Shown here: one piece after another, positions 1,251 through 43,364 of the stretch | Layout: every line of letters begins with the position of its first letter | How positions within the stretch are numbered: position 1 is the first letter of the stretch | Origin: Candidatus Nomurabacteria bacterium | Lineage (GTDB): Bacteria; Patescibacteriota; Minisyncoccia; Phycocordibacterales; UBA10002 | Reading direction: 5' to 3' | NCBI GenBank assembly: GCA_943349725.1 | Contig: CALQZP010000002.1 | Span: forward strand, 1 to 45,102 | DNA: 45,102 nt | Notes under the pieces: generated by a model | Databases searched by the model: none | What the model saw: only the letters and a program-made list of their open reading frames with translations | Told to the model about the DNA's origin: nothing | Program-made: the position numbers and the translations under genes

Positions 1251-1976
1251 TTACTTTTTCTGGCGAGATTGTTTCCACTCGTCTATCTTGGCTTGGTGTC
1301 CGGAGAGGAGCACCTTCGGCACACGAAGTTTTTTTCCGTTGTATTCAAAAATCTCGGGGCGCGTGTAGACATCGGGGCTTGCGATACGGCTTTCCTCGCG
1401 TGAATTAAAATCGCCGAGCACGCCTTCCACTTGGCGTGCAATGACGTCTATCATAAGCATCGCGGGAAGTTCCCCACCGGTAAGTACGAACGGCCCGACG
1501 GACACCTCATCAACCTTTCCGCCAGAGGCGGATCCGCCTCTGGCGGAGAATGCTTTTTTCACCCGCGCGTCTATCCCCTCATACCGTCCGCAGATAATGA
1601 TGATGTCGGAGGACTTCGCATACTTCACTCCCGTTTCGTTCGTAAATTGTTTTCCGCTTGGCGTCAGCCACACAATAGGAGTTTTTAGTTTGAAGTTTTT
1701 AGTTTGAAGTTTTTTTGTGTTCTTATTTTTAACTGTAAACTCTAAACTTTTAACTGCTTCAGCTACCGCTTTGATAACCGGTTCGGCTTGAATGACCATC
1801 CCCGGTCCCCCGCCGTACGGTGCGCGGTCAATCCGCTTATGTTTATCTTCGGTGAAATCGCGGGGGTTGTAAAACTTCACTTTTATCTTTTTATCCTCAA
1901 TGGCGCGTTTCAAGATGGACTCCCCGAGGTAGGAGTCAAAAGCGTGCGGGAAGAGGGTTATGATGTGGAAAGTCAT
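1251..1976 (-). CDS. trmD: tRNA (guanine37-N1)-methyltransferase TrmD
   Basis: N-terminus FHIITLFPHAF, plus APYGGGPGMV and VLTGGELPAM, are typical TrmD motifs. The gene carries two repeat-derived in-frame insertions (1518-1547 and about 1678-1765). Confidence 0.93.
   Translation of the reverse strand: MTFHIITLFPHAFDSYLGESILKRAIEDKKIKVKFYNPRDFTEDKHKRIDRAPYGGGPGMVIQAEPVIKAVAEAVKSLEFTVKNKNTKKLQTKNFKLKTPIVWLTPSGKQFTNETGVKYAKSSDIIIICGRYEGIDARVKKAFSARGGSASGGKVDEVSVGPFVLTGGELPAMLMIDVIARQVEGVLGDFNSREESRIASPDVYTRPEIFEYNGKKLRVPKVLLSGHQAKIDEWKQSRQKK
1518..1547. repeat. 30-bp double-hairpin palindrome in-frame inside trmD
   Basis: TCCGCCAGAGGCGGA followed by TCCGCCTCTGGCGGA, a perfect palindrome that encodes ARGGSASGGK. 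The same hairpin pair occurs upstream of the GIY-YIG gene (26648-26676). Confidence 0.85.
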
Positions 1977-3162: not shown

Positions 3163-3555
3163 TTATGCCTTTGGCGCTTCGGCTACGGACTCGCCCTGCG
3201 TAGCCTTTGGCGAAGCAGGGGCTTCGGCTACCGGCTCGCCCTGCGTAGCCTTTGGCGAAGCAGGGGCTTCTTCTTTTTTGATGGGAGTTCGTTTTGGAAG
3301 TACGTTTATTTTCTTTCCCGGAATAATGCGCTCATGAACGAGATAGTTGTGCACGGTACCAGACGGCTGGGCTCCTTTGGAAATCCAATATTTGATGCGT
3401 TCAGCATCCACCTTCTTCTCGTCGGTCATGAGGTTGTAGGTGCCGAGCACTTCGTGGAACTTACCGCTTTTTGTGGAGTTTTTGGAGTCGGTCAAAACCA
3501 CCCGAAAAATCGGGATGTGCTTCCTGGCCACTCGCTGTAGTCTTATCTTCAACAT
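3163..3555 (-). CDS. rpsP: 30S ribosomal protein S16 with repeat-encoded C-terminal extension
   Basis: MLKIRLQRVARKHIPIFRVV is a canonical S16 N-terminus. The C-terminal tail is encoded by two tandem 45-bp repeats. Confidence 0.92.
   Translation of the reverse strand: MLKIRLQRVARKHIPIFRVVLTDSKNSTKSGKFHEVLGTYNLMTDEKKVDAERIKYWISKGAQPSGTVHNYLVHERIIPGKKINVLPKRTPIKKEEAPASPKATQGEPVAEAPASPKATQGESVAEAPKA
3187..3276. repeat. 2 x 45-bp tandem repeat (family C core CCCTGCGTAGCCTTTGGCGAAGCAGGGG) in-frame in the rpsP tail
   Basis: Units at 3187-3231 and 3232-3276 differ at a few positions. Each encodes EAPASPKATQGE(P/S)VA. Confidence 0.9.
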
Positions 3556-3562
3556 AGGCGAG

Positions 3563-3591
3563 ATGGTAGCAGAATAACATCTCCCCGTCAA
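3563..3591 (-). promoter_or_regulatory. rpsP promoter, leaderless geometry
   Basis: Minus strand reads TTGACG-N17-TACCAT-N7-ATG. Confidence 0.5.
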
Positions 3592-3594
3592 TTT

Positions 3595-3629
3595 TTCATA
3601 CTTCATAATTCATACTTCATAATTCATCT
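3595..3629. repeat. Heptamer tandem array (ttcata[ac] units)
   Basis: ttcatac ttcataa ttcatac ttcataa ttcatct, in the divergent rpsP/rnr intergenic region. Confidence 0.8.
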
Positions 3630-19827: not shown

Positions 19828-21909
19828 TTAAATATCGAGCGTCGCTTTTGTCGCGTTGGATTGAATGAAGCTCTTGCGTGCCGGCACATCCTCGCCCATC
19901 AAGATATCAAAGACTTTGTCGGCATCCTGCGCGTCTTCTACGGTCACCTGCTTTAGGACGCGGTGTTCGGGGTCCATCGTAGTCTCCCAGAGTTCATCAG
20001 GGTTCATTTCTCCAAGACCTTTGTAGCGCTGGATGGAAACTTTGGTTGATTTCGGCTTGCCCTGCGTAGCCTTTGGCGAAGCAGGGGCTTCCACTTCTTC
20101 TGTTTCCTGTCCTTCCTCCGCCTCCTCTTCGGCGTCTTTTACCTCAATTCCCTCTTTCTTCAAAAAGGTGTTTTTCTCCTCGTCCGAGTAGAAATAGTAA
20201 AACTCTTTACCACGTTTCACTTTGTACAGTGGCGGTTGCGCGATATAGATAAACCCTCCGTCAATGAGCTGTCTGAAATAGCGGAAAAAGAGTGTGAGAA
20301 GGAGTGTTCTAATATGCGCGCCGTCAACGTCGGCATCGGTCGCGATGATAACTTTGTGGTAACGAAGTCTGGAAACATCAAACGAATCGGAAATACCGGT
20401 ACCAAGCGCAATAACGAGCGCTTTGATTTCGGCAAAGGCAAGTATCTTATCGAGCCTTGCGCGTTCAACGTTCAGTACTTTTCCGCGAAGCGGAAGGATG
20501 GCCTGCGTCCTGCGGTCGCGTCCTTGCTTCGCGCTACCCCCTGCCGAATCTCCCTCCACAATAAAGACTTCCGCTTCTTCGGCACTTTTAGTTTCGCAAT
20601 CGGCAAGCTTACCCGGCAAGGTCATTCCCTCAAGCGCGCCTTTGCGTAGCACCGAGTCTTTCGCGGCCTTGGCCGCTTTGCGTGCCTTGAGCGCCAAGAT
20701 AACTTTGCTCACCATCGCTCTCGCGTCGTCGGGATTTTCCTCAAGAAACGCTGTGAAGAACTCTCCGAAAACCGTCGCAACGGCAGACTGCGCCTCTACA
20801 CTACCGAGTTTGGCTTTGGTCTGACCTTCAAATTGGATTTCACGGAGTTTAACCGAAATAACTGCCGTAAGTCCTTCCAGAACGTCCTCGCCAGTGAAGT
20901 TTTCCTCGCTTTCCTTGATGTATTCGTTCTTGCGGGCGTAGGAATTGAGCGTTCTCGTAAGTGCTGTCTTGAAACCGGTGACATGTGTTCCACCATCGGG
21001 TGTGTGGATATTGTTCGCAAACGGCATCACTCGCGAAGAAATATCGTCCACATACTGCAGGGCAATCTCAACGGATTCCACACCCTCTACTTTTTTCTCC
21101 ACGTAGAAAATGCTCTTGTGAATAGATTTGAAGTGCTCATTGTAATGCTTGACGAGCGAAAGGAGTCCTCCTTCAAAATAGAAGGTGTGTGAGGGTACTT
21201 CAAGTCCGAGTTCACGCAGATAAAATACATCCGCCGTGTCAACTTCGGGAAGAGCTCGCGCGTCAATCACCGAGATACGCAAACCTTTCACAAGATACGC
21301 CTGCTGACGCATATGGGTGACCACTCGGTCAAAATTGAACTCCACTCCCTCTTTAAAGATTTCCTTGTCAGGCTCAAAAGTCACAAGGGTGCCATGAAGA
21401 TCGCTCTTGCCTATTTTCTTGACGAGCGCTTTGCGCTTGCCTTGCTTGTACTCCTGCATAAAGACGCCACCGTCGCGATGCACTACAACTTCCAAATAGA
21501 TGGAGAGTGCGTTTACGACTGATGCACCCACTCCGTGCAGACCTCCGGACACCTTGTACCCTTCGCCACCGAACTTTCCTCCGGCGTGGAGGGTGGTCAT
21601 AATGGTTTCAAGAGCAGAGACTTTCGTTGACTTGTGCGTATCCACGGGAATACCTCGGCCGTTGTCCACCACGCGCACTCGGTTATTCGGCAAGAGCGCC
21701 ACCTCAATATCGGTACAAAAACCACCCATCGCCTCATCGCGTGAGTTGTCAAAGATTTCAGTAATCAGGTGATGGAGACCATCGGGACCGGTCGTACCGA
21801 TATACATTCCAGGGCGCTTACGTACCGGTTCCAAACCTTCAAGAACGGTAATAGAAGAGGCGTCGTACTGCGCTACTTTCTCCTTTTTTTCTTCCTTATT
21901 TTTAGCCAT
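19828..21909 (-). CDS. gyrB: DNA gyrase subunit B
   Basis: GHKL ATPase motifs (EIFDNSRDEA, GLHGVGASVVNALS), Toprim (EVFIVEGDSAGGSAKQGRDR, ATDADVDGAHI) and YKGLGEMNPDELW. Confidence 0.95.
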   Translation of the reverse strand: MAKNKEEKKEKVAQYDASSITVLEGLEPVRKRPGMYIGTTGPDGLHHLITEIFDNSRDEAMGGFCTDIEVALLPNNRVRVVDNGRGIPVDTHKSTKVSALETIMTTLHAGGKFGGEGYKVSGGLHGVGASVVNALSIYLEVVVHRDGGVFMQEYKQGKRKALVKKIGKSDLHGTLVTFEPDKEIFKEGVEFNFDRVVTHMRQQAYLVKGLRISVIDARALPEVDTADVFYLRELGLEVPSHTFYFEGGLLSLVKHYNEHFKSIHKSIFYVEKKVEGVESVEIALQYVDDISSRVMPFANNIHTPDGGTHVTGFKTALTRTLNSYARKNEYIKESEENFTGEDVLEGLTAVISVKLREIQFEGQTKAKLGSVEAQSAVATVFGEFFTAFLEENPDDARAMVSKVILALKARKAAKAAKDSVLRKGALEGMTLPGKLADCETKSAEEAEVFIVEGDSAGGSAKQGRDRRTQAILPLRGKVLNVERARLDKILAFAEIKALVIALGTGISDSFDVSRLRYHKVIIATDADVDGAHIRTLLLTLFFRYFRQLIDGGFIYIAQPPLYKVKRGKEFYYFYSDEEKNTFLKKEGIEVKDAEEEAEEGQETEEVEAPASPKATQGKPKSTKVSIQRYKGLGEMNPDELWETTMDPEHRVLKQVTVEDAQDADKVFDILMGEDVPARKSFIQSNATKATLDI
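20054..20091. repeat. Family C element in-frame in gyrB
   Basis: CCCTGCGTAGCCTTTGGCGAAGCAGGGG (20060-20087) is identical to the rpsP repeat core and encodes APASPKATQGKP. Confidence 0.9.
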
Positions 21910-22839: not shown

Positions 22840-24798
22840 CTAGCGGACTTCCCAGCCGTTTAATTTGAGTGCGCTGTAGACCTTTTCCATGCTGGCGTTC
22901 ACTTCCTCGTCGGAGAGGGTTCGGTCGAAGGATTGAAAGACGAGGCGGAATGCGAGGGATTTTTTGCCGTCTTTTAAAAACTCGTCAAAAAGCTCAGGGC
23001 CACGAACGACAAGCTGACCAGCGTTTTCTTTAATTGCTTTTGCAACCGAATCTGCGGAAGGAAAAACATCCCCCGCCTCCGAAGACGGAGGTACCCCCTT
23101 TGCTAAGGGGGATACAAACAGCGCCACGTCGCGAACAATAAATGGATACAGCGAAAACGGAGCAAACTTCACGTTGCGCGAAGGGAAAACAGAAATATCC
23201 CATTTTTTTGGTTCAGAAAGCCCATCAAGGACCTGATTTAGAGTACACTCAAATACTCCGTCTTTCATTTCTCCGGTAAGGGTTACACAGAGCTCCTTCC
23301 CAAGGAGTTCTACCACTCCAGTAAGTTCGCCTGCAATCTTCTTCTTCGGTCCTCCGTAGCCAATCGCAAGTGAGGTAACTTCCCCGCTCGTAGGCTTGCC
23401 CGCCGAAGCCTCGGCGAAGGCGGGAAAGATGCGACCAATCTCAAAAATACGCGTTTCGGATGTTCCGAGTAGCGGAGCGTTTAGTGCATTCATTTTAAGC
23501 GCTTTCTCAAAATTACCGCGTAGGTTCGCTCGCGCGTACTTCTTGTCCTCCGCAAGTGGCTTTAAAATAGCAATCTCGCCGGTATCTGAAAAAGAAGACG
23601 TCTGTATCTCCGAAAAGCCAGCGTTTACCAGAATTTCGCGGATTTTCCACTCGTAGTAAAAGGACGTGGGAATTTCCGTGACTCCTCCCGCTTGAGGAAC
23701 AACTGCAAGAATCTTGTCATAACCAATAATCCGACCGACTTCTTCCACGATGTCTTCGAAAATTACTAAATCAAGACGCTCGGGTGGAATATGCGCCAGA
23801 AGCTTCTCGCCTTCTTTATTACAGGAAATACCCAATCGGCGGAGGACATCAACAATCTCAGGCTCGGAAAGTGCTACACCGAGTTTCCGCGAAATGAGCT
23901 CCGTGTCTACCTCGAGAGTTCGTGCATGGACTTCTTCAAATGAAACTATTTCTCGCTTCCCTATTCTCACACCCTCGGCGCCCGTGATTGATTCTATAAG
24001 TAAGGCAAGCCGGTCAATCCCTTCTTCGCCGAGGAGCGGAGAAAGCCGATTCTCGAAACGCTTTGACGCTTCGGTTTTGATGCCAGTCGAGGTTGCGGTG
24101 CGACGGATATAAGAAGGGTTCCAATTGGCCGCTTCCAAGATAAGGTTTTTGGTCGCCTCGTCTACTTCTGCACGTTTCCCTCCTTTGATTCCCGCAAGTG
24201 AAAGCGGCCCTTCGTCATCGGCAATCACCAGTTCATTATTGTTGAGTTCCACCCGCTTGTTATCAAGGGTCACCATTACCTCACCCTTTCGTGCAAAACG
24301 AACCACAAGCCCGCCCTTCACCTTGTCCGCGTCAAAGGCATGAAGTGGCCGTCCGATATCAAACATCACATAGTTTGTAGCATCAACGATATTATTGATT
24401 GAACGCTGGCCGATAGACTCGAGTGCCTCTTTAAGCCACGCGGGAGACTCCCCAACCTTAACATTTTCCATGCTCCGTGCGACAAATTTCGTACAAAGCT
24501 CCGGTTCATCAATCCGAACATCGACAGAAATCACGTCTGGAGATTCCACAATTTTCTTTTCTTCCCGATTTTTGAGAGGTACATTCAAAATCGCAGAAAC
24601 TTCCCGTGCAATACCGCGGTGCGAAAGCGCGTAGCAGGCTCTGTCTGGAAGAACTTTAACATCCAAAACAGTATCGTTGCCGACATGCTCAACACTCTCG
24701 ATTTCGGCAAATGAAAAAGTAATCCGATCTGAAAGCTCCTCCGATGTTGGAAGTTTTTCATCAAAATATGACTGCAACCATTTATAAGAAACTTTCAT
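22840..24798 (-). CDS. pheT: Phenylalanyl-tRNA synthetase beta subunit, without the OB tRNA-binding domain
   Basis: B1 start MKVSYKWLQSYF runs directly into LPDRACYALSHRGIAREV. B3/4, B5 and a C-terminal FDX-ACB-like region are present. Length is 652 aa. Confidence 0.9.
   Translation of the reverse strand: MKVSYKWLQSYFDEKLPTSEELSDRITFSFAEIESVEHVGNDTVLDVKVLPDRACYALSHRGIAREVSAILNVPLKNREEKKIVESPDVISVDVRIDEPELCTKFVARSMENVKVGESPAWLKEALESIGQRSINNIVDATNYVMFDIGRPLHAFDADKVKGGLVVRFARKGEVMVTLDNKRVELNNNELVIADDEGPLSLAGIKGGKRAEVDEATKNLILEAANWNPSYIRRTATSTGIKTEASKRFENRLSPLLGEEGIDRLALLIESITGAEGVRIGKREIVSFEEVHARTLEVDTELISRKLGVALSEPEIVDVLRRLGISCNKEGEKLLAHIPPERLDLVIFEDIVEEVGRIIGYDKILAVVPQAGGVTEIPTSFYYEWKIREILVNAGFSEIQTSSFSDTGEIAILKPLAEDKKYARANLRGNFEKALKMNALNAPLLGTSETRIFEIGRIFPAFAEASAGKPTSGEVTSLAIGYGGPKKKIAGELTGVVELLGKELCVTLTGEMKDGVFECTLNQVLDGLSEPKKWDISVFPSRNVKFAPFSLYPFIVRDVALFVSPLAKGVPPSSEAGDVFPSADSVAKAIKENAGQLVVRGPELFDEFLKDGKKSLAFRLVFQSFDRTLSDEEVNASMEKVYSALKLNGWEVR
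23070..23113. repeat. Family A hairpin element in-frame in pheT
   Basis: CCCCCGCCTCCGAAGACGGAGGTACCCCCTTTGCTAAGGGGGATA encodes SPLAKGVPPSSEAGD. It is the reverse complement of the RpiB-type element. Confidence 0.85.
23399..23423. repeat. GC hairpin element in-frame in pheT
   Basis: CCCGCCGAAGCCTCGGCGAAGGCGGG encodes AFAEASAGKP. Confidence 0.6.
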
Positions 24799-26240: not shown

Positions 26241-26319
26241 ACCCCTCCTTAACTGAGGAGGGGAAGAAATCCCTCCTGCCAAAGACGGCAGTACTCCCTT
26301 TAGGAAAGGGAGAATTAAG
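26241..26319. repeat. Array of GC hairpin modules 3' of tRNA-Thr
   Basis: CCCTCCTTAACTGAGGAGGG, CTGCCAAAGACGGCAG and TACTCCCTTTAGGAAAGGGAGAATTAAGA. The last module recurs at 31983-32008 and 35109-35135. Confidence 0.8.
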
Positions 26320-26320
26320 A

Positions 26321-31914: not shown

Positions 31915-32024
31915 ATCCGTGCCTGTTTTATTCCTCCTTTTTTAAAGCCTGCTCGACTGAACGACCTCAGTCGTTCGGGCGGGCTCCCTTTAGCAAAGGG
32001 AGAATAAGATGCCCCACAATGGTA

Positions 32025-32818: not shown

Positions 32819-33226
32819 CTAAAAATGCAACGTGTTTGGTTCCTCCTTTGTAAAAGGAGGTGCCGAGGTCTTCCGAGGCGGAGGATTTAAGACATCTTCA
32901 ATAGTTCGTAGTACGCCTTCCATGTTATGACGTACATCACTATCTAGAAATCGGAGAAATCGAATGCCTTCACACTCTATCGCCTTTTGTCTTTGAATAT
33001 CCTTATCAATCTTTCCATTATGCGTTGCACCATCAATTTCAAGGGCAAGCCTTAGCTTTTCACAGTAGAAGTCAACTACATAGGTCAATATAGGCCGTTG
33101 TCGAAGGAATTGAACCCCTAATTTCCTCGCCTTCAATTCCTTCCACAAAAGCGCTTCGGCAAGATTGCCTGACGAGCGTAGAATTCGTCCGACTTTTTTC
33201 AAATCTGAACGATAGTGAAGCTTCAT
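32819..33226 (-). CDS. DUF559 (Vsr/restriction-endonuclease-like) domain protein
   Basis: AEALLWKELKARKLGVQFLRQRPILTYVVDFYCEKLRLALEIDGATH...EGIRFLRF is the typical DUF559 pattern. The last ~22 aa (NPPPRKTSAPPFTKEEPNTLHF) are encoded by the left element. GGAGG lies 4 nt before the ATG, inside the right element. Confidence 0.8.
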   Translation of the reverse strand: MKLHYRSDLKKVGRILRSSGNLAEALLWKELKARKLGVQFLRQRPILTYVVDFYCEKLRLALEIDGATHNGKIDKDIQRQKAIECEGIRFLRFLDSDVRHNMEGVLRTIEDVLNPPPRKTSAPPFTKEEPNTLHF

Positions 33227-33282
33227 AAATCCTCCGTCCTGATAAGAATCAGGACACCTCCTTTTGCAAAGGAGGAACTAAG
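32838..33282 (-). mobile_element. Candidate composite unit: DUF559 nuclease gene bracketed by inverted ~55-bp family A elements
   Basis: Left copy 32838-32891 (forward), right copy 33227-33282 (reverse). The outer 25 nt match at 23/25 (GTTCCTCCTTTGyAAAAGGAGGTG), and both inner ends read CGGAGGATTTA. Confidence 0.45.
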
Positions 33283-34383: not shown

Positions 34384-35493
34384 ATGCACAAACAACTAGA
34401 CTTCCTCGCCATCGGCGACATCACGACCGACGCGTTTATAAAACTCAAAGAAGCCAGTGTTTCCTGCGATATTGATAAGGAGAACTGCACCATCTCAATG
34501 CGCTTTGCCGACAAAGTCCCCTACGAATCGGTAGAGGTTGTCCGCGCGGTCGGCAATTCGCCGAACGCTTCGGTGTCAGCCTCTCGCCTCGGACTCGCTT
34601 CCGGACTTGTCACCGACATTGGTGATGACGAAAATGGACGCGACTGCACGGACACGCTGAAACAGGAAAAAGTAGACACCAGCCTAGTCACCATCCACAA
34701 AGGAGAGAAAACAAACTACCACTACGTCTTGATGTATGAGGCAGAGCGTACGATTTTGGTAAAGCACGAGGAGTATAGCTACAAACTTCCCGCGATTGAA
34801 CCTGCGCCAAAATGGATATATCTTTCGTCACTCGGGGGAAACTCGGAACAGTATCACTCTGAACTCGCGGACTACCTTGAGAGCAATCCTGGAGTACAAC
34901 TCGCTTTTCAGCCCGGAACTTTTCAGATGAAATTAGGAAGAGAGAAGCTAAAAAGACTTTACCAGCGTTCCGCTCTCTTCTTCTGCAATAAGGAGGAGGC
35001 GGGGCGCATTCTCTCTTTCCCCATTCCTCCTTTACTAAAGGAGGTGTCCGAGTCTTCGAGGACGGAGGATTTAAATCCCTCCCCCTCACGGGGGTCTACG
35101 ACCATTTCAGTACTCCCTTTGGAAAAGGGAGAATTGCACATCAAAAAGTTACTTTCTGGTATCGGCGCACTTGGACCAAAAACTGTGGTGATTACCGACG
35201 GACCAAAAGGTGCGTACGCATACGATAGCGCCACAGACGAATACTTATTTATGCCGATTTACCCGGACCCGAAACCTCCCGTTTCCCGCACAGGTGCCGG
35301 TGATGCCTTCGCCTCAACTTTTACCTCCGCCATTATTCTCGGCAAATCGGTCAAAGAGGCACTCACGTGGGCGCCTATCAACTCCGCCTATGTAGTGCAA
35401 CAAATCGGCGCACAAAAAGGACTCCTTACTCGCGCGGAGCTTGAAAACTATCTTGCCTCTGCACCTGAAAACTACACGCCTGCACACCTCTAA
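34384..35493 (+). CDS. PfkB-family carbohydrate kinase with a ~37-aa repeat-encoded insertion
   Basis: Ribokinase-like start DFLAIGDITTDAF and C-terminal motif TGAGDAFASTF. The insertion is at 35024-35135. Confidence 0.85.
   Translation: MHKQLDFLAIGDITTDAFIKLKEASVSCDIDKENCTISMRFADKVPYESVEVVRAVGNSPNASVSASRLGLASGLVTDIGDDENGRDCTDTLKQEKVDTSLVTIHKGEKTNYHYVLMYEAERTILVKHEEYSYKLPAIEPAPKWIYLSSLGGNSEQYHSELADYLESNPGVQLAFQPGTFQMKLGREKLKRLYQRSALFFCNKEEAGRILSFPIPPLLKEVSESSRTEDLNPSPSRGSTTISVLPLEKGELHIKKLLSGIGALGPKTVVITDGPKGAYAYDSATDEYLFMPIYPDPKPPVSRTGAGDAFASTFTSAIILGKSVKEALTWAPINSAYVVQQIGAQKGLLTRAELENYLASAPENYTPAHL
35024..35135. repeat. Composite family A hairpin array in-frame in the PfkB kinase
   Basis: TTCCTCCTTTACTAAAGGAGGTGTCCGAGTCTTCGAGGACGGAGGATTTAAAT is nearly identical to 32840-32889. 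It is followed by CCCTCCCCCTCACGGGGG and GTACTCCCTTTGGAAAAGGGAGAATT. Confidence 0.9.
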
Positions 35494-35541
35494 CCTGAAC
35501 CCAGAAACCAACCGTTCAACCAAGAAACAGTGGCCTGCTGT

Positions 35542-35569
35542 TTCTACTATACTACAGAGTATAGTAGAA
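35542..35569. promoter_or_regulatory. 28-bp perfect palindrome upstream of the TrpR/YerC-like gene
   Basis: TTCTACTATACT-acag-AGTATAGTAGAA. It contains TATAGT (35560-35565) and ends 14 nt before ATG 35584. Confidence 0.6.
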
Positions 35570-35583
35570 TTAAAAAATCAACT

Positions 35584-36054
35584 ATGCCAAGAAAAGAACT
35601 ATCAAAAATCAACCCTAAGGAGCGGCAACGAATCCTCGATGAATTTTGGACGATGATAGCGCTTCTAGATACAAAGGATCAGGTGAAAAACTTTTTTAAG
35701 GATTTACTTTCGGCGAGTGAGTCGGTTATGCTGGCGCGTCGTATTCAAATTGCCAAGCTTCTCCTGTCCGGAGTCGGCTACGATGCTATAGAAAAGCGAC
35801 TGGGAACCGGACCGACCACTATCGCTTCGGTACATCGCTGGCTCCAGGGAGGCTTTGGTGGCTATGCGAGTGCGATACCGAAGCTTACGCAGGAAATCGA
35901 GAGGCGAGAGAAAGTCGCAGAGCGGCGCGAGGAAGAAAGCGTCCCTTTAAGTTCAAGATGGATGCGAAAAAAGTACCCGCTTCATTACCTTCTCGTAAAC
36001 ATGATGAACGACGATGACGAAGATTTGAGCCCTCCCCGCAAGATTTCAGGCTAG
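35584..36054 (+). CDS. TrpR-like YerC/YecD family DNA-binding protein
   Basis: FFKDLLSASESVMLARRIQIAKLLLSGVGYDAIEKRLGTGPTTIASVHRWLQGGFGGY matches the YerC/YecD pattern. Start is placed at ATG 35584. Confidence 0.75.
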   Translation: MPRKELSKINPKERQRILDEFWTMIALLDTKDQVKNFFKDLLSASESVMLARRIQIAKLLLSGVGYDAIEKRLGTGPTTIASVHRWLQGGFGGYASAIPKLTQEIERREKVAERREEESVPLSSRWMRKKYPLHYLLVNMMNDDDEDLSPPRKISG

Positions 36055-36092
36055 GCTAAACTGATCTGACCTCCGACCTAACCTGTTTTATT

Positions 36093-36120
36093 TTCTACTA
36101 TACTACAGAGTATAGTAGAA
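36093..36120. promoter_or_regulatory. Second identical copy of the 28-bp palindrome, downstream of the TrpR-like gene
   Basis: The 28 bp are identical to 35542-35569, starting 38 nt past the stop codon. Confidence 0.6.
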
Positions 36121-42848: not shown

Positions 42849-43364
42849 TTATACCATATCAATTTTCTTCAGTCTTCTGATGTGTCGTTCATCATTTGAA
42901 AATGGTGTCAGAAGCCACAGGCGCACCGCTTCCTTGGCGTCTTCTAGTGTGACGAACCGTGTACCGATAGTGATGACATTTGAGTCATTGTGGTCTCGCG
43001 AAACCGTCACCATACTCGGGTTGTTGCCGTAATAGACGACCGCTCGAACACCGGGGACACGATTGGCCGCAATCATTTCACCCTGCCCGGAACCTGCGGG
43101 AACAATCCCTCGGACCAATCGGGAATCCCCCTTAGTAAAGGGGGTGCCGGAGGCGGGGGTTGTTGACATCTCTCCTCCCTTTTCTAGGGGAGAGTAGGAC
43201 GCAACTTTCCTCGCCATCGGTATCACATAGTCGGGATAGTCATCGGTCTTATCAAACGTAAGCGGACCACAATCCTCCACGTCGTGTCCCAGCGTTTTCA
43301 CGTACGCCATCAGCTCTTTTTTAAGTTCAAACCCGGCATGGTCACCGGCGAAATATATTTTCAT
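42849..43364 (-). CDS. rpiB: Ribose-5-phosphate isomerase B with a repeat-encoded insertion
   Basis: MKIYFAGDHAGFELK and GSGQGEMIAANRVPGVRA (Glu-type active site, as in mycobacterial RpiB). The insertion is at 43126-43197. Confidence 0.88.
   Translation of the reverse strand: MKIYFAGDHAGFELKKELMAYVKTLGHDVEDCGPLTFDKTDDYPDYVIPMARKVASYSPLEKGGEMSTTPASGTPFTKGDSRLVRGIVPAGSGQGEMIAANRVPGVRAVVYYGNNPSMVTVSRDHNDSNVITIGTRFVTLEDAKEAVRLWLLTPFSNDERHIRRLKKIDMV
43126..43197. repeat. Family A hairpin array in-frame in rpiB
   Basis: ATCCCCCTTAGTAAAGGGGGTGCCGGAGGCGGGGG and CTCTCCTCCCTTTTCTAGGGGAGAG encode SYSPLEKGGEMSTTPASGTPFTKGD. Confidence 0.9.

What the first reader, a model, noticed from the sequence alone, without database searches (positions are those of the whole stretch)
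35024..35135. A ~112-bp array of three GC hairpin modules is inserted in-frame in a PfkB sugar kinase
The kinase ORF stays open across a block made only of dispersed repeat modules. One is the CCTCCTTT-AAAGGAGG module with its GGAGGATTTAA tail, as found next to DUF559. One is a CCCCCTCACGGGGG hairpin. One is the TCCCTTTGGAAAAGGGAGAATT module, also seen at 26293-26316 and 31983-32008.

The block encodes about 37 aa (FPIPPLLKEVSESSRTEDLNPSPSRGSTTISVLPLEKGEL). It lies between the conserved NKEEAGRIL segment and the following helix. This resembles Rickettsia palindromic elements (RPEs), the known precedent for palindromic elements inserted in-frame, here in a different lineage and with modular elements.
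Basis: partly seen in the sequence, partly recalled or inferred. Interest (0 to 1): 0.66.

Follow-up and report, generated by a model that had tools for sequence, protein, structure and literature searches.

The report
Palindromic mobile element inside a kinase
A roughly 110-base palindromic mobile DNA element, the gene-less form of a small nuclease cassette, sits in frame in a surface loop of a sugar-kinase gene in a Parcubacteria genome; this is a Rickettsia-like phenomenon in a new lineage, and it recurs at the same loop in related genomes.

Summary
The PfkB ORF (34384-35493) stays open across 35024-35135, a block built from dispersed hairpin repeats. The gene is 36 codons longer than most orthologs: 98 of the 120 closest have no insert of more than 2 residues at this site.

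The block is not three independent modules. It is one composite five-hairpin imperfect palindrome (H1-H5). In another genome (L212) the same element carries a DUF559 (Vsr-like PD-(D/E)XK) nuclease gene in the middle of H3. The window has its own DUF559 cassette at 32819-33281, flanked by inverted H1-H2 modules. The PfkB copy therefore looks like an ORF-less, MITE-like derivative.

The same element family lies in frame in KsgA, a PPDK-like protein and an alcohol dehydrogenase in other metagenomes. The same PfkB loop is occupied in 22 of 120 orthologs, scattered over the tree, by at least three or four palindromic families.

One nearly identical allele pair differs by replacement of a whole block. 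A second pair changes from near-identical to diverged at the insert. This suggests spread by homologous recombination.

AlphaFold2 models the insert as a disordered loop on an intact ribokinase fold.

Verdict: an RPE-like in-frame selfish element in Patescibacteria. It is a new variant of a known kind, with a new candidate nuclease partner.

The parts
34384..35493 (+). PfkB-family (ribokinase-fold) sugar/nucleoside kinase gene, 369 aa, host of the insert
   Evidence: Pfam PfkB, E = 1.8e-29. All 55 invariant columns of the 118-sequence ortholog alignment are present. The AlphaFold2 model has mean pLDDT 90.3 and pTM 0.89. Its fold matches ribokinases, with target-normalised TM-score up to 0.87 against 1rka. 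Synteny with 2-Hacid_dh, the Trp-repressor-like gene and transketolase is shared with orthologous loci.
35014..35139 (+). Loop-coding segment between the conserved 'RIL' and 'IKKLL' anchors: 126 nt here against 18 nt in most orthologs
   Evidence: tblastn anchor mapping, protein alignments and DNA alignment to the closest insert-free loci L089 and L005.
35024..35135 (+). Five-hairpin palindromic element (type A): the ORF-less form of the DUF559 cassette, read in frame as IPPLLKEVSESSRTEDLNPSPSRGSTTISVLPLEKGE
   Evidence: Same architecture in 22 distinct copies from the window, PfkB orthologs and a metagenome scan. No Rfam family matches. No terminator-like site is found.
35026..35044 (+). H1 hairpin CCTCCTTT-ACT-AAAGGAGG. 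Its 3' arm plus TG reads AAAGGAGGTG, a Shine-Dalgarno-like string
   Evidence: Across 23 copies, 97% of cells in the H1 helix are paired.
35046..35063 (+). H2 hairpin GTCC-GA-G-TCTT-C-GA-GGAC: a variable stem with tandem G.A mismatches
   Evidence: 6 of 7 pairs show compensatory changes across 23 copies. Covariation score is 0.168 against 0.071 in shuffles, and 0 of 500 shuffles reach it. Each copy folds as a hairpin.
35064..35082 (+). H3 central palindrome GGAGGATTT/AAATCCCTCC: the point where the DUF559 ORF sits in full-length cassettes
   Evidence: In L212, H1-H2-GGAGGATTTC | DUF559 | GAAATCCCTCC-H4-H5. The window and L147/L152 cassettes confirm the arrangement.
35081..35094 (+). H4 variable GC hairpin CCCCCTCACGGGGG
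   Evidence: H4 differs in sequence but folds as a hairpin in nearly all copies.
35095..35112 (+). Extra 18 nt (TCTACGACCATTTCAGTA) between H4 and H5, absent from most copies. It resembles a short 'AGTCTACGACTA..CAG' string nested in other copies
   Evidence: Comparison of copies. Similar strings occur in L175, L110 and L196.
35113..35131 (+). H5 hairpin CTCCCTTT-GGA-AAAGGGAG
   Evidence: Other window copies lie at 26294 and 31984.
32819..33226 (-). DUF559 (Vsr-like PD-(D/E)XK nuclease) gene of a full-length cassette. Its C-terminal tail is encoded by the flanking module
   Evidence: Pfam DUF559, E = 4.9e-27. Translation. The start codon lies within GGAGGATTTATG.
32840..32890 (+). Cassette end: H1-H2-GGAGGATTTAA module
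   Evidence: (family D11).
33226..33281 (-). Other cassette end: an inverted H1-H2-GGAGGATTTAT module that abuts the stop codon of 2-Hacid_dh
   Evidence: (inverted repeats I4, I5). Syntenic loci L085, L086 and L088 lack the cassette.
26242..26320 (+). Intergenic partial copy (H1-like, right half of H3, H4, H5), lying just 3' of the tRNA gene (which is on the minus strand)
31925..32010 (+). Intergenic degenerate copy (H1 remnant, H4-like hairpin, H5)

Best explanation
The segment is a non-autonomous palindromic mobile element, MITE-like and RPE-like. It belongs to a family whose full-length members carry a DUF559 (Vsr-like PD-(D/E)XK) nuclease gene in the middle of the central palindrome.

A copy of about 110 nt lies in frame in the loop between helix 203-210 (which carries the NxxE motif) and helix 246-261 of a ribokinase-fold kinase. 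It is most likely transcribed and translated with the gene as a disordered surface loop of 36 extra residues. The kinase probably remains functional.

The insert is best seen as selfish or neutral DNA that survives because this loop tolerates it and because the reading frame and stop-free state have been filtered by selection.

Within Parcubacteria the same loop has been hit repeatedly by this and other palindromic families. Insert-bearing blocks move between related lineages by homologous recombination.

Shown:
- insertion relative to orthologs;
- repeat-family membership;
- the relationship to the DUF559 cassette;
- in-frame copies in other genes;
- an allele that differs by replacement of a whole block.

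Inferred:
- translation of the insert and retained kinase function;
- that DUF559 is the mobilising enzyme;
- the direction and mechanism of transfer.
For: 1. Insertion. 98 of the 120 closest orthologs have a 17-20-residue segment where the window has 54. The closest relatives, P0002 and P0003, lack the insert.

2. Repeat family. There are 22 distinct five-hairpin copies with conserved H1, H3 and H5 and covarying H2 and H4.

3. Nuclease cassette.
- L212 reads H1-H2-H3L | DUF559 | H3R-H4-H5.
- The DUF559 genes of the window and of L147/L152 are exactly flanked by inverted modules.
- The window cassette is absent from syntenic loci.
- 50 of 120 DUF559 homologs have module-encoded C-terminal tails, and many lie on very short contigs.

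4. In-frame copies in other genuine genes: KsgA/RrnaAD, PPDK_N and ADH_zinc_N for type A, and TrmD and ABC_tran for sister subtypes. The KsgA copy is read in a different frame, so the DNA rather than the peptide is what is conserved.

5. Selection filter. Of 18 type-A copies ascertained by DNA pattern, 4 lie inside genes. All 4 are in frame and none splits a gene. Only 25 of 66 forward and 17 of 66 reverse frames of the element are open.

6. Permissive loop. Residues 211-245 have no secondary structure, and pLDDT is below 50 at 223-244, in a model with mean pLDDT 90.3. The fold is that of ribokinase.

7. Hot spot and recombination.
- 22 of 120 orthologs carry inserts in this loop, scattered on the NJ tree beside insert-free sisters.
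- L001 (with insert) and L088 (without) are 100% identical over about 600 nt upstream and 330 nt downstream. They differ in a replaced block that includes about 45 nt 3' of the element.
- L210 and L211 are almost identical for about 1.4 kb up to the insert, then diverged after it.
Against: - There are no expression or proteomic data, so translation of the insert and kinase activity are inferred.
- No target-site duplication was seen.
- DUF559 is not a known transposase, so mobility by this enzyme is conjecture.
- The PfkB ortholog copies were found through intact predicted proteins, which biases them towards in-frame cases.
- The recombination signatures come from metagenome assemblies. A repeat can cause chimeric joins, which is a particular concern for the L210/L211 pair.
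- The RNA fold of the whole insert is not much more stable than shuffled sequence (z = -1.9 and -1.1).
Confidence: 0.8

Rival explanations
1. Site-specific homing. A trans-acting DUF559 nuclease cuts the empty PfkB loop sequence, and repair from an insert-bearing allele copies the element together with flanking sequence (co-conversion). This would explain the recurrence at one site.
For: - The five-hairpin element lies between loop codons 3 and 4, in the same orientation and frame, in at least three separated lineages: the window, P0051 and the P0014/P0017/P0038 clade.
- The replaced block in L001 versus L088 includes flanking coding sequence.
- There is a divergence breakpoint at the insert in L210 versus L211.
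- The native loop DNA (GGAAACCGAAGAA) resembles the 3' arm of H5 (GGAAAAGGGAGAA).
Against: - Other palindromic families occupy slightly different positions in the same loop. This fits a permissive-site filter better than a single recognition sequence.
- The element also sits in unrelated genes and in intergenic sites with no common flank beyond its own ends.
- No nuclease activity or target is known for DUF559.
- None of the 80 GTDB species-representative loci carries the element.
Confidence: 0.2
2. The insert has been co-opted for an RNA- or protein-level function. The three Shine-Dalgarno-like strings sequestered in hairpins might pause ribosomes or stabilise the mRNA, or the loop might mediate an interaction.
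For: - H1's 3' arm (AAAGGAGGTG), H3 (GGAGGA) and H5 (AAGGGAG) are Shine-Dalgarno-like (sequence).
- Hairpin H2 keeps its pairing through compensatory changes.
- The insert persists in several lineages.
Against: - The same hairpins are conserved in intergenic copies and in other reading frames, so the conservation is a property of the element and not of PfkB.
- Close relatives do without the insert.
- The peptide is predicted to be disordered.
- Palindrome symmetry can be maintained by the element's own biology.
Confidence: 0.08
3. The gene is a decaying pseudogene and the open frame is a coincidence.
For: Palindromic insertions can be disruptive. No expression data are available.
Against: - All 55 invariant ortholog positions are intact, including the NxxE and GAGD motifs.
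- The model is confident everywhere outside the insert.
- Five independent assemblies keep the same element in frame.
- Four of four pattern-ascertained copies inside genes are in frame.
Confidence: 0.07
4. The segment is an ancestral loop that most orthologs have lost.
For: Several diverged orthologs share a similar peptide at the site.
Against: - The segment is nucleotide-level repeat DNA that also occurs in intergenic regions and in other genes.
- Carriers are scattered on the tree, each next to an insert-free sister with the exact 6-residue loop.
- None of the 80 species-representative loci has it.
Confidence: 0.03
5. The insert is removed before or during translation, for example as an intron-like intervening sequence or by ribosomal bypass.
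For: Hairpin-rich inserts in coding sequence are bypassed or spliced in some systems. This rests on general knowledge (phage T4 gene 60, yeast mitochondrial byps) and was not tested here.
Against: - Every copy seen inside a gene is a multiple of three in net length and free of stops. That constraint would be unnecessary if the insert were removed.
- No Rfam intron or ribozyme family matches.
Confidence: 0.02

Closest known systems
Rickettsia palindromic elements (RPEs; Ogata et al. 2000, as summarised in PMC10969869)
   Same: Both are dispersed palindromic repeats of about 100-150 nt. Both are inserted in frame in unrelated housekeeping genes, leave the host ORF intact, and appear to sit in structurally permissive positions. 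Both also occur in intergenic DNA.
   Different: - The host lineage is different (Parcubacteria/Patescibacteria rather than Rickettsia), and no sequence relationship is known.
- There is no conserved RPE-type peptide: the KsgA copy uses another frame.
- A candidate protein-coding parent (the DUF559 cassette) exists.
- One loop is occupied repeatedly across orthologs.
- Blocks show signs of exchange by recombination.
Bacterial MITEs that make in-frame fusions (intragenic ERIC, Coxiella QMITE1, Anabaena MITEs; review PMC10969869)
   Same: Small, non-autonomous and multi-copy, with terminal inverted repeats. They share their ends with a longer protein-coding element.
   Different: The longer element encodes a PD-(D/E)XK nuclease and not a recognised transposase. 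No target-site duplication was found.
REPtrons (a REP-associated tyrosine transposase gene flanked by inverted REP hairpins). Comparison from my own knowledge
   Same: A small gene bracketed by inverted copies of the hairpin repeat that is dispersed through the genome.
   Different: The enzyme is DUF559 and not a Y1/HUH transposase. The repeat unit is a multi-hairpin module of 50-100 nt and not a REP of 20-40 nt. The only Y1_Tnp gene seen (in L002) is not flanked by the modules.
Homing endonuclease genes with co-conversion of flanks, including Vsr-like (EDxHD) homing endonucleases. Comparison from my own knowledge
   Same: A small nuclease-encoding selfish cassette, recurrence at the same site of a conserved gene, and flanking sequence replaced together with the insert.
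   Different: There is no intron or intein to restore the host product. The PfkB copies lack the nuclease gene. Targets are not a single conserved sequence.

Membership tests
Rickettsia palindromic elements (RPE) | Dispersed repeat of about 100-150 nt with palindromic or hairpin potential | tested here: met
   112-nt five-hairpin imperfect palindrome. There are 22 distinct full copies and at least 120 module hits.
Rickettsia palindromic elements (RPE) | In-frame insertion in protein-coding genes, with the host ORF kept intact | tested here: met
   PfkB in the window and four orthologs; also KsgA, PPDK_N and ADH_zinc_N.
Rickettsia palindromic elements (RPE) | Sequence membership in the RPE-1 to RPE-10 families of Rickettsia genomes | not tested
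   No RPE sequences were available for comparison. The host is a Parcubacteria genome (source names). I therefore treat this as an analogue, not a member.
Rickettsia palindromic elements (RPE) | Inserted segment lies on the protein surface and is compatible with the fold | tested here: met
   Residues 211-245 are coil with pLDDT below 50 at 223-244. The rest of the model is confident and has the ribokinase fold. This rests on a model only.
MITE | Small, with no coding capacity of its own, and terminal inverted repeats | tested here: met
   The ends ATTCCTCC...GGGAGAAT extend to CTTAATTCC...GGAATTAAG in many copies. H1 and H5, and H2 and H4, are mirror counterparts.
MITE | Shares its ends with a longer autonomous element | tested here: met
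   L212 reads H1-H2-H3L | DUF559 | H3R-H4-H5. The window and L147/L152 cassettes agree.
MITE | The autonomous partner encodes a transposase | tested here: not met
   The partner ORF is DUF559/MTES_1575, a PD-(D/E)XK nuclease family. No transposase domain was found.
MITE | Target-site duplication flanking the insertions | tested here: inconclusive
   The flanks of 22 copies show no consistent direct repeat. The apparent TTA/TAA flanks are inverted and are part of the element's ends.
REP / RAYT (REPtron) | A Y1 (HUH) transposase gene flanked by inverted REPs | tested here: not met
   The flanked gene is DUF559. The weak Y1_Tnp hit in L002 has no modules around it.
Homing endonuclease element | A nuclease gene resides within the mobile insert at the homing site | tested here: not met
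   The PfkB copies contain no ORF. DUF559 is encoded elsewhere, at 32819-33226.
Homing endonuclease element | Co-conversion of flanking host sequence with the insert | tested here: inconclusive
   The L001/L088 block replacement includes about 45 nt of 3' flank, and there is a breakpoint at the insert in L210/L211. These are metagenome assemblies, and ordinary recombination would give the same pattern.
PfkB / ribokinase family (host gene) | PfkB domain, NxxE and GAGD motifs, ribokinase fold | tested here: met

The most novel reading that the evidence does not exclude
DUF559 nuclease cassettes bounded by multi-hairpin ends, together with their ORF-less five-hairpin derivatives, form a previously undescribed class of mobile element in Patescibacteria. 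The arrangement resembles a REPtron or a homing element but uses a PD-(D/E)XK nuclease. These elements colonise housekeeping genes in frame at permissive loops and spread between lineages by recombination, which makes particular loops (such as this PfkB loop) recurrent insertion hot spots.
Probability: 0.35. Interest if true: 0.75.

Novelty: new variant of a known kind. Interest (0 to 1): 0.6.

Why it matters
In-frame selfish palindromes are textbook only for Rickettsia. Finding the same behaviour in Patescibacteria, with many housekeeping genes affected, matters for four reasons.

1. It shows that this route of protein-length evolution is broader than thought. In this 45-kb window PfkB and RpiB are affected, with candidate cases (judged by eye) in PheT, GyrB and S16. 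KsgA, a PPDK-like protein, an alcohol dehydrogenase and TrmD are affected elsewhere.

2. It offers a candidate enzyme for such elements. DUF559 is a very abundant family with no assigned role.

3. It gives a natural system in which one protein loop has been hit repeatedly. That allows tests of structural tolerance against target specificity.

4. It warns annotators that extra loops in proteins of these reduced genomes may be repeat DNA and not lineage-specific functional insertions.

Tried and rejected
- **Rfam.** Scans at gathering threshold over the whole window, and at permissive E-value over 34900-35250, returned only the tRNA and chance-level hits.
- **Whole-insert fold.** The RNA fold of the insert is not clearly more stable than shuffles on either strand. 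I therefore relied on per-hairpin covariation.
- **Terminator and promoter scan.** Nothing was found in the insert, so an internal intrinsic terminator is rejected.
- **Peptide census.** A peptide-profile search for the insert peptide across the protein database found nothing (34 candidates, none scored).
- **Y1 transposase link.** The weak Y1_Tnp gene next to PfkB in L002 has no modules around it, so a REP/RAYT-type link was dropped.
- **Target-site duplications.** None was consistent.
- **Broken PfkB copies.** I looked for PfkB copies, intact or broken, among the 120 pattern-ascertained metagenome loci and found none.
- **Internal translation start.** The TTG after H5 is only 2 nt from the GGGAGAA string and is not conserved in other copies, so this idea was rejected.
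- **Literature.** Searches found no report linking Parcubacteria or Patescibacteria with MITEs, in-frame palindromic elements or DUF559. The library is partial.
Full report
**Observation**

The ORF 34384..35493 (+) encodes a 369-residue PfkB kinase (Pfam PF00294, E = 1.8e-29). It reads straight through 35024-35135.

That block consists of repeat modules that are far more frequent in the window than chance allows:
- CCTCCTTT-N3-AAAGGAGG occurs three times exactly, against 0.02 expected.
- CTCCCTTT-N3-AAAGGGAG occurs three times, against 0.02 expected.
- A 51-nt module is shared with 32840-32890 at 78% identity, and an inverted copy lies at 33226-33281.

**It is an insertion**

The 120 best orthologs all come from Parcubacteria/Paceibacteria-type metagenome bins and are mostly 330-333 residues long.

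Between the conserved EEAxxIL and the following LL, 87 of them have 18 residues and 98 have 17-20. The window has 54.

At DNA level the gap between the 'RIL' and 'IKKLL' anchors is 126 nt in the window. It is 18 nt in 61 of the 88 loci compared, and it is always a multiple of three.

The two closest relatives (P0002 and P0003, 80% identity) have the short loop.

Shared synteny confirms orthology. The neighbours are a divergent 2-hydroxyacid dehydrogenase, a Trp-repressor-like gene and transketolase.

**Anatomy**

I compared the window copy with the inserts of four orthologs (L001, L002, L003, L084) and with copies recovered by a DNA-pattern scan of metagenomes. The block is one composite element and not three independent modules. 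Its parts are:
- H1: TTCCTCCTTT-N3-AAAGGAGGTG.
- H2: a stem of variable sequence, usually GCC-GA-G-TCTG-C-GA-GGC, with tandem G.A mismatches.
- H3: the central palindrome GGAGGATTT/AAATCCCTCC.
- H4: a GC hairpin of free sequence.
- H5: CTCCCTTT-N3-AAAGGGAGAAT.

The two halves mirror each other: H1 matches H5, H2 matches H4, and H3 is the centre.

Twenty-two distinct full copies were collected. In H2, six of seven pairs change on both sides while keeping the pair. The covariation score is 0.168 against 0.071 in shuffles, and no shuffle of 500 reaches it. H2 and H4 fold as hairpins in nearly all copies although their sequences differ.

The compensatory changes alter the encoded peptide (SESSRT, AESARP, AHSDET, PESARG). 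In a KsgA gene the element is read in a different frame. What is conserved is therefore nucleic-acid symmetry and not a peptide.

No Rfam family matches. No terminator-like site lies in the insert.

**Relationship to DUF559**

In the window, the DUF559 gene 32819..33226 (-) (Pfam E = 4.9e-27) is bracketed by inverted H1-H2-GGAGGATTTA modules. Its start codon lies in GGAGGATTTATG, and its C-terminal tail is encoded by the other module.

The cassette lies between the L25 and 2-Hacid_dh genes. Three syntenic loci (L085, L086, L088) have no cassette and no module there. It is therefore an insertion.

The same arrangement recurs around a 61%-identical DUF559 gene in L147/L152.

The decisive case is L212. 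Read on the reverse strand it gives H1-H2-GGAGGATTTC, then the DUF559 ORF, then GAAATCCCTCC-H4-H5. That is the five-hairpin element with the nuclease gene in the middle of H3. The PfkB insert is therefore the ORF-less form of this cassette.

Of 120 DUF559 homologs, 50 have C-terminal tails with peptides that the modules would encode (PPLxKEE, LPLxKGE, [IL][KN][SP][SP]). Many lie on contigs under 1.5 kb, as expected for multi-copy DNA that breaks assemblies.

**The behaviour is general**

The same family lies in frame inside genuine domains in other metagenomes:
- Type A copies sit in KsgA/RrnaAD, PPDK_N and ADH_zinc_N.
- Sister subtypes sit in TrmD and an ABC ATPase.

Eighteen type-A copies were ascertained purely by DNA pattern. 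Four lie inside genes, and all four are in frame and free of stops. The others sit next to the ends of different complete genes such as RecA, TatD, Fmt and RarA. Those identifications are from my inspection of the translations.

Only 25 of 66 forward frames and 17 of 66 reverse frames of the element are open. The copies inside genes are therefore a filtered subset.

The window itself holds further cases:
- RpiB carries about 24 extra residues from a palindromic element relative to solved RpiB structures.
- PheT contains a variant H1-H2 module, judged by eye.
- A different 47-nt repeat encodes EAPASPKATQG in GyrB and twice in S16, also judged by eye.

**A recurrent site**

Twenty-two of the 120 orthologs have inserts of 6-47 residues in this same six-residue loop. 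On a neighbour-joining tree they are scattered, and each sits beside an insert-free sister.

At least three or four palindromic families are involved:
- the five-hairpin element;
- a pair of small GAGGT...ACCTC hairpins (GRTSxERGPT);
- an 80-nt long-armed palindrome in L086;
- a DPVKSAEADNGAS type, for which I did not obtain the DNA.

They occupy slightly different codon positions. This fits a structurally permissive loop better than a single recognition sequence.

The five-hairpin element, however, lies between loop codons 3 and 4 in the same orientation in at least three separated lineages. The native loop DNA (GGAAACCGAAGAA) also resembles the 3' arm of H5 (GGAAAAGGGAGAA). Some sequence preference or microhomology therefore cannot be excluded.

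**Recombination**

L001 (with insert) and L088 (without) are 100% identical for about 600 nt upstream and about 330 nt downstream. Between them lies a fully different block that runs from the 'IL' codons to just before 'LGPK'. It includes about 45 nt of coding sequence 3' of the element.

The insert-free allele resembles its sister P0044 in that tract. The insert-bearing block therefore looks imported.

L210 (with insert) and L211 (without) are almost identical for about 1.4 kb up to the insert and diverged after it.

These are metagenome assemblies, and repeats can cause chimeric joins. The first pair is a clean internal replacement seen in two independent assemblies, which makes it the stronger case.

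**Structure**

An AlphaFold2 model built with 118 orthologs has mean pLDDT 90.3 and pTM 0.89. Residues 211-245 have no secondary structure, and pLDDT is below 50 at 223-244. They lie between helices 203-210 and 246-261.

The model matches ribokinases, with target-normalised TM-score up to 0.87 against 1rka. All 55 invariant ortholog positions are intact. The gene therefore does not look like a pseudogene.

**Interpretation**

The best-supported reading is an RPE-like, MITE-like selfish element. It derives from a DUF559 nuclease cassette, is inserted in frame in a permissive loop, and is probably translated as a disordered loop.

Insertion, family membership, the cassette relationship, other in-frame hosts and block replacement are shown. 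Translation, retained kinase function, DUF559 as the mobilising enzyme and the transfer mechanism are inferred.

**Comparison with what is known**

In-frame palindromic insertion is known for Rickettsia RPEs and for a few MITEs (review PMC10969869). My searches of the held library found nothing on this for Parcubacteria or Patescibacteria, and nothing linking it to DUF559.

The element works like an RPE, but membership of the RPE families was not tested and the host lineage differs. It meets the structural criteria for a MITE. Its partner, however, is a PD-(D/E)XK nuclease and not a transposase, and no target-site duplication was found. The gene-flanked-by-inverted-repeats layout resembles a REPtron but lacks the Y1 enzyme.

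I rate it a new variant of a known kind. The more novel possibility is that DUF559 cassettes are a new mobile-element class.

Noticed in passing
window 43119-43195 (ORF 42849..43364, minus strand): The RpiB-like gene carries about 24 extra residues (YSPLEKGGEMSTTPASGTPFTKGDS...) encoded by a palindromic element with CCCCCTTAGTAAAGGGGG and CTCCCCTAGAAAAGGGAG hairpins. In the PDB RpiB alignment, query 1-53 matches target 5-57 and query 84-164 matches target 64-142.
   Followed up: partly
window 23065-23115 (PheT, ORF 22840..24798, minus strand): A variant H1-H2-H3L module (CCCCCTTAGCAAAGGGGG, ACCTCCGTCTTCGGAGG, GGGGGATG) is read in frame as SPLAKGVPPSSEAGDV inside the FDX-ACB domain. The Pfam match covers 99 residues against 88 profile positions.
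   Followed up: partly
window 20053-20099 (GyrB) and 3187-3278 (S16 ORF 3163..3606): A different 47-nt hairpin repeat (GGCTCGCCCTGCGTAGCCTTTGGCGAAGCAGGGGCTTC) encodes EAPASPKATQG(E/K)P. It occurs once in the GyrB linker and twice in tandem in the C-terminal tail of ribosomal protein S16.
   Followed up: partly
window 35093-35110; L175, L110, L196: A short string (GTCTACGACCATTTCAG here; AGTCTACGACTA..CAG elsewhere) appears nested inside several copies of the hairpin element, sometimes interrupting H1. It may be a still smaller inserted sequence.
   Followed up: no
window 35541-35569 and 36092-36120: The Trp-repressor-like gene 35584..36054 is bracketed by two identical 29-nt palindromic repeats (TTTCTACTATACTACAGAGTATAGTAGAA). 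In orthologous loci this gene is on the opposite strand relative to PfkB.
   Followed up: no
window 1518-1547 (ORF 1251..1976, minus strand): A 30-nt perfect palindrome, TCCGCCAGAGGCGGATCCGCCTCTGGCGGA, lies inside a 241-residue ORF.
   Followed up: no
L097, L100, L131, L162, L115 (metagenome loci): In several contigs the five-hairpin element is itself embedded in a larger inverted repeat (GTAACCCCTCACACTC ... GAGTGTGAGGGGTTAC). This suggests nested palindromic elements.
   Followed up: no
L103 8166-10616 and L147 4024-6447: The RecA genes next to element copies are 807-816 residues long, with a large internal block between the P-loop region and the rest of RecA. This looks like an intein (by eye).
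   Followed up: no
window 35113-35139 versus L005 and L089 empty sites: The native loop DNA of insert-free orthologs (GGAAACCGAAGAAACCGACATC) aligns with the 3' arm of H5 plus its flank in the window (GGAAAAGGGAGAATTGCACATC). This may be microhomology at the insertion point.
   Followed up: partly
L134, L141, L160, L163, L172, L178 and others (metagenome loci): A sister subfamily has the same H1-H2-GGAGGATTTA ends, but its centre is a long stem (CTTGAGTTACGGG ... CCCGTAACTCAAG) in place of H3. One copy is in frame in TrmD.
   Followed up: partly
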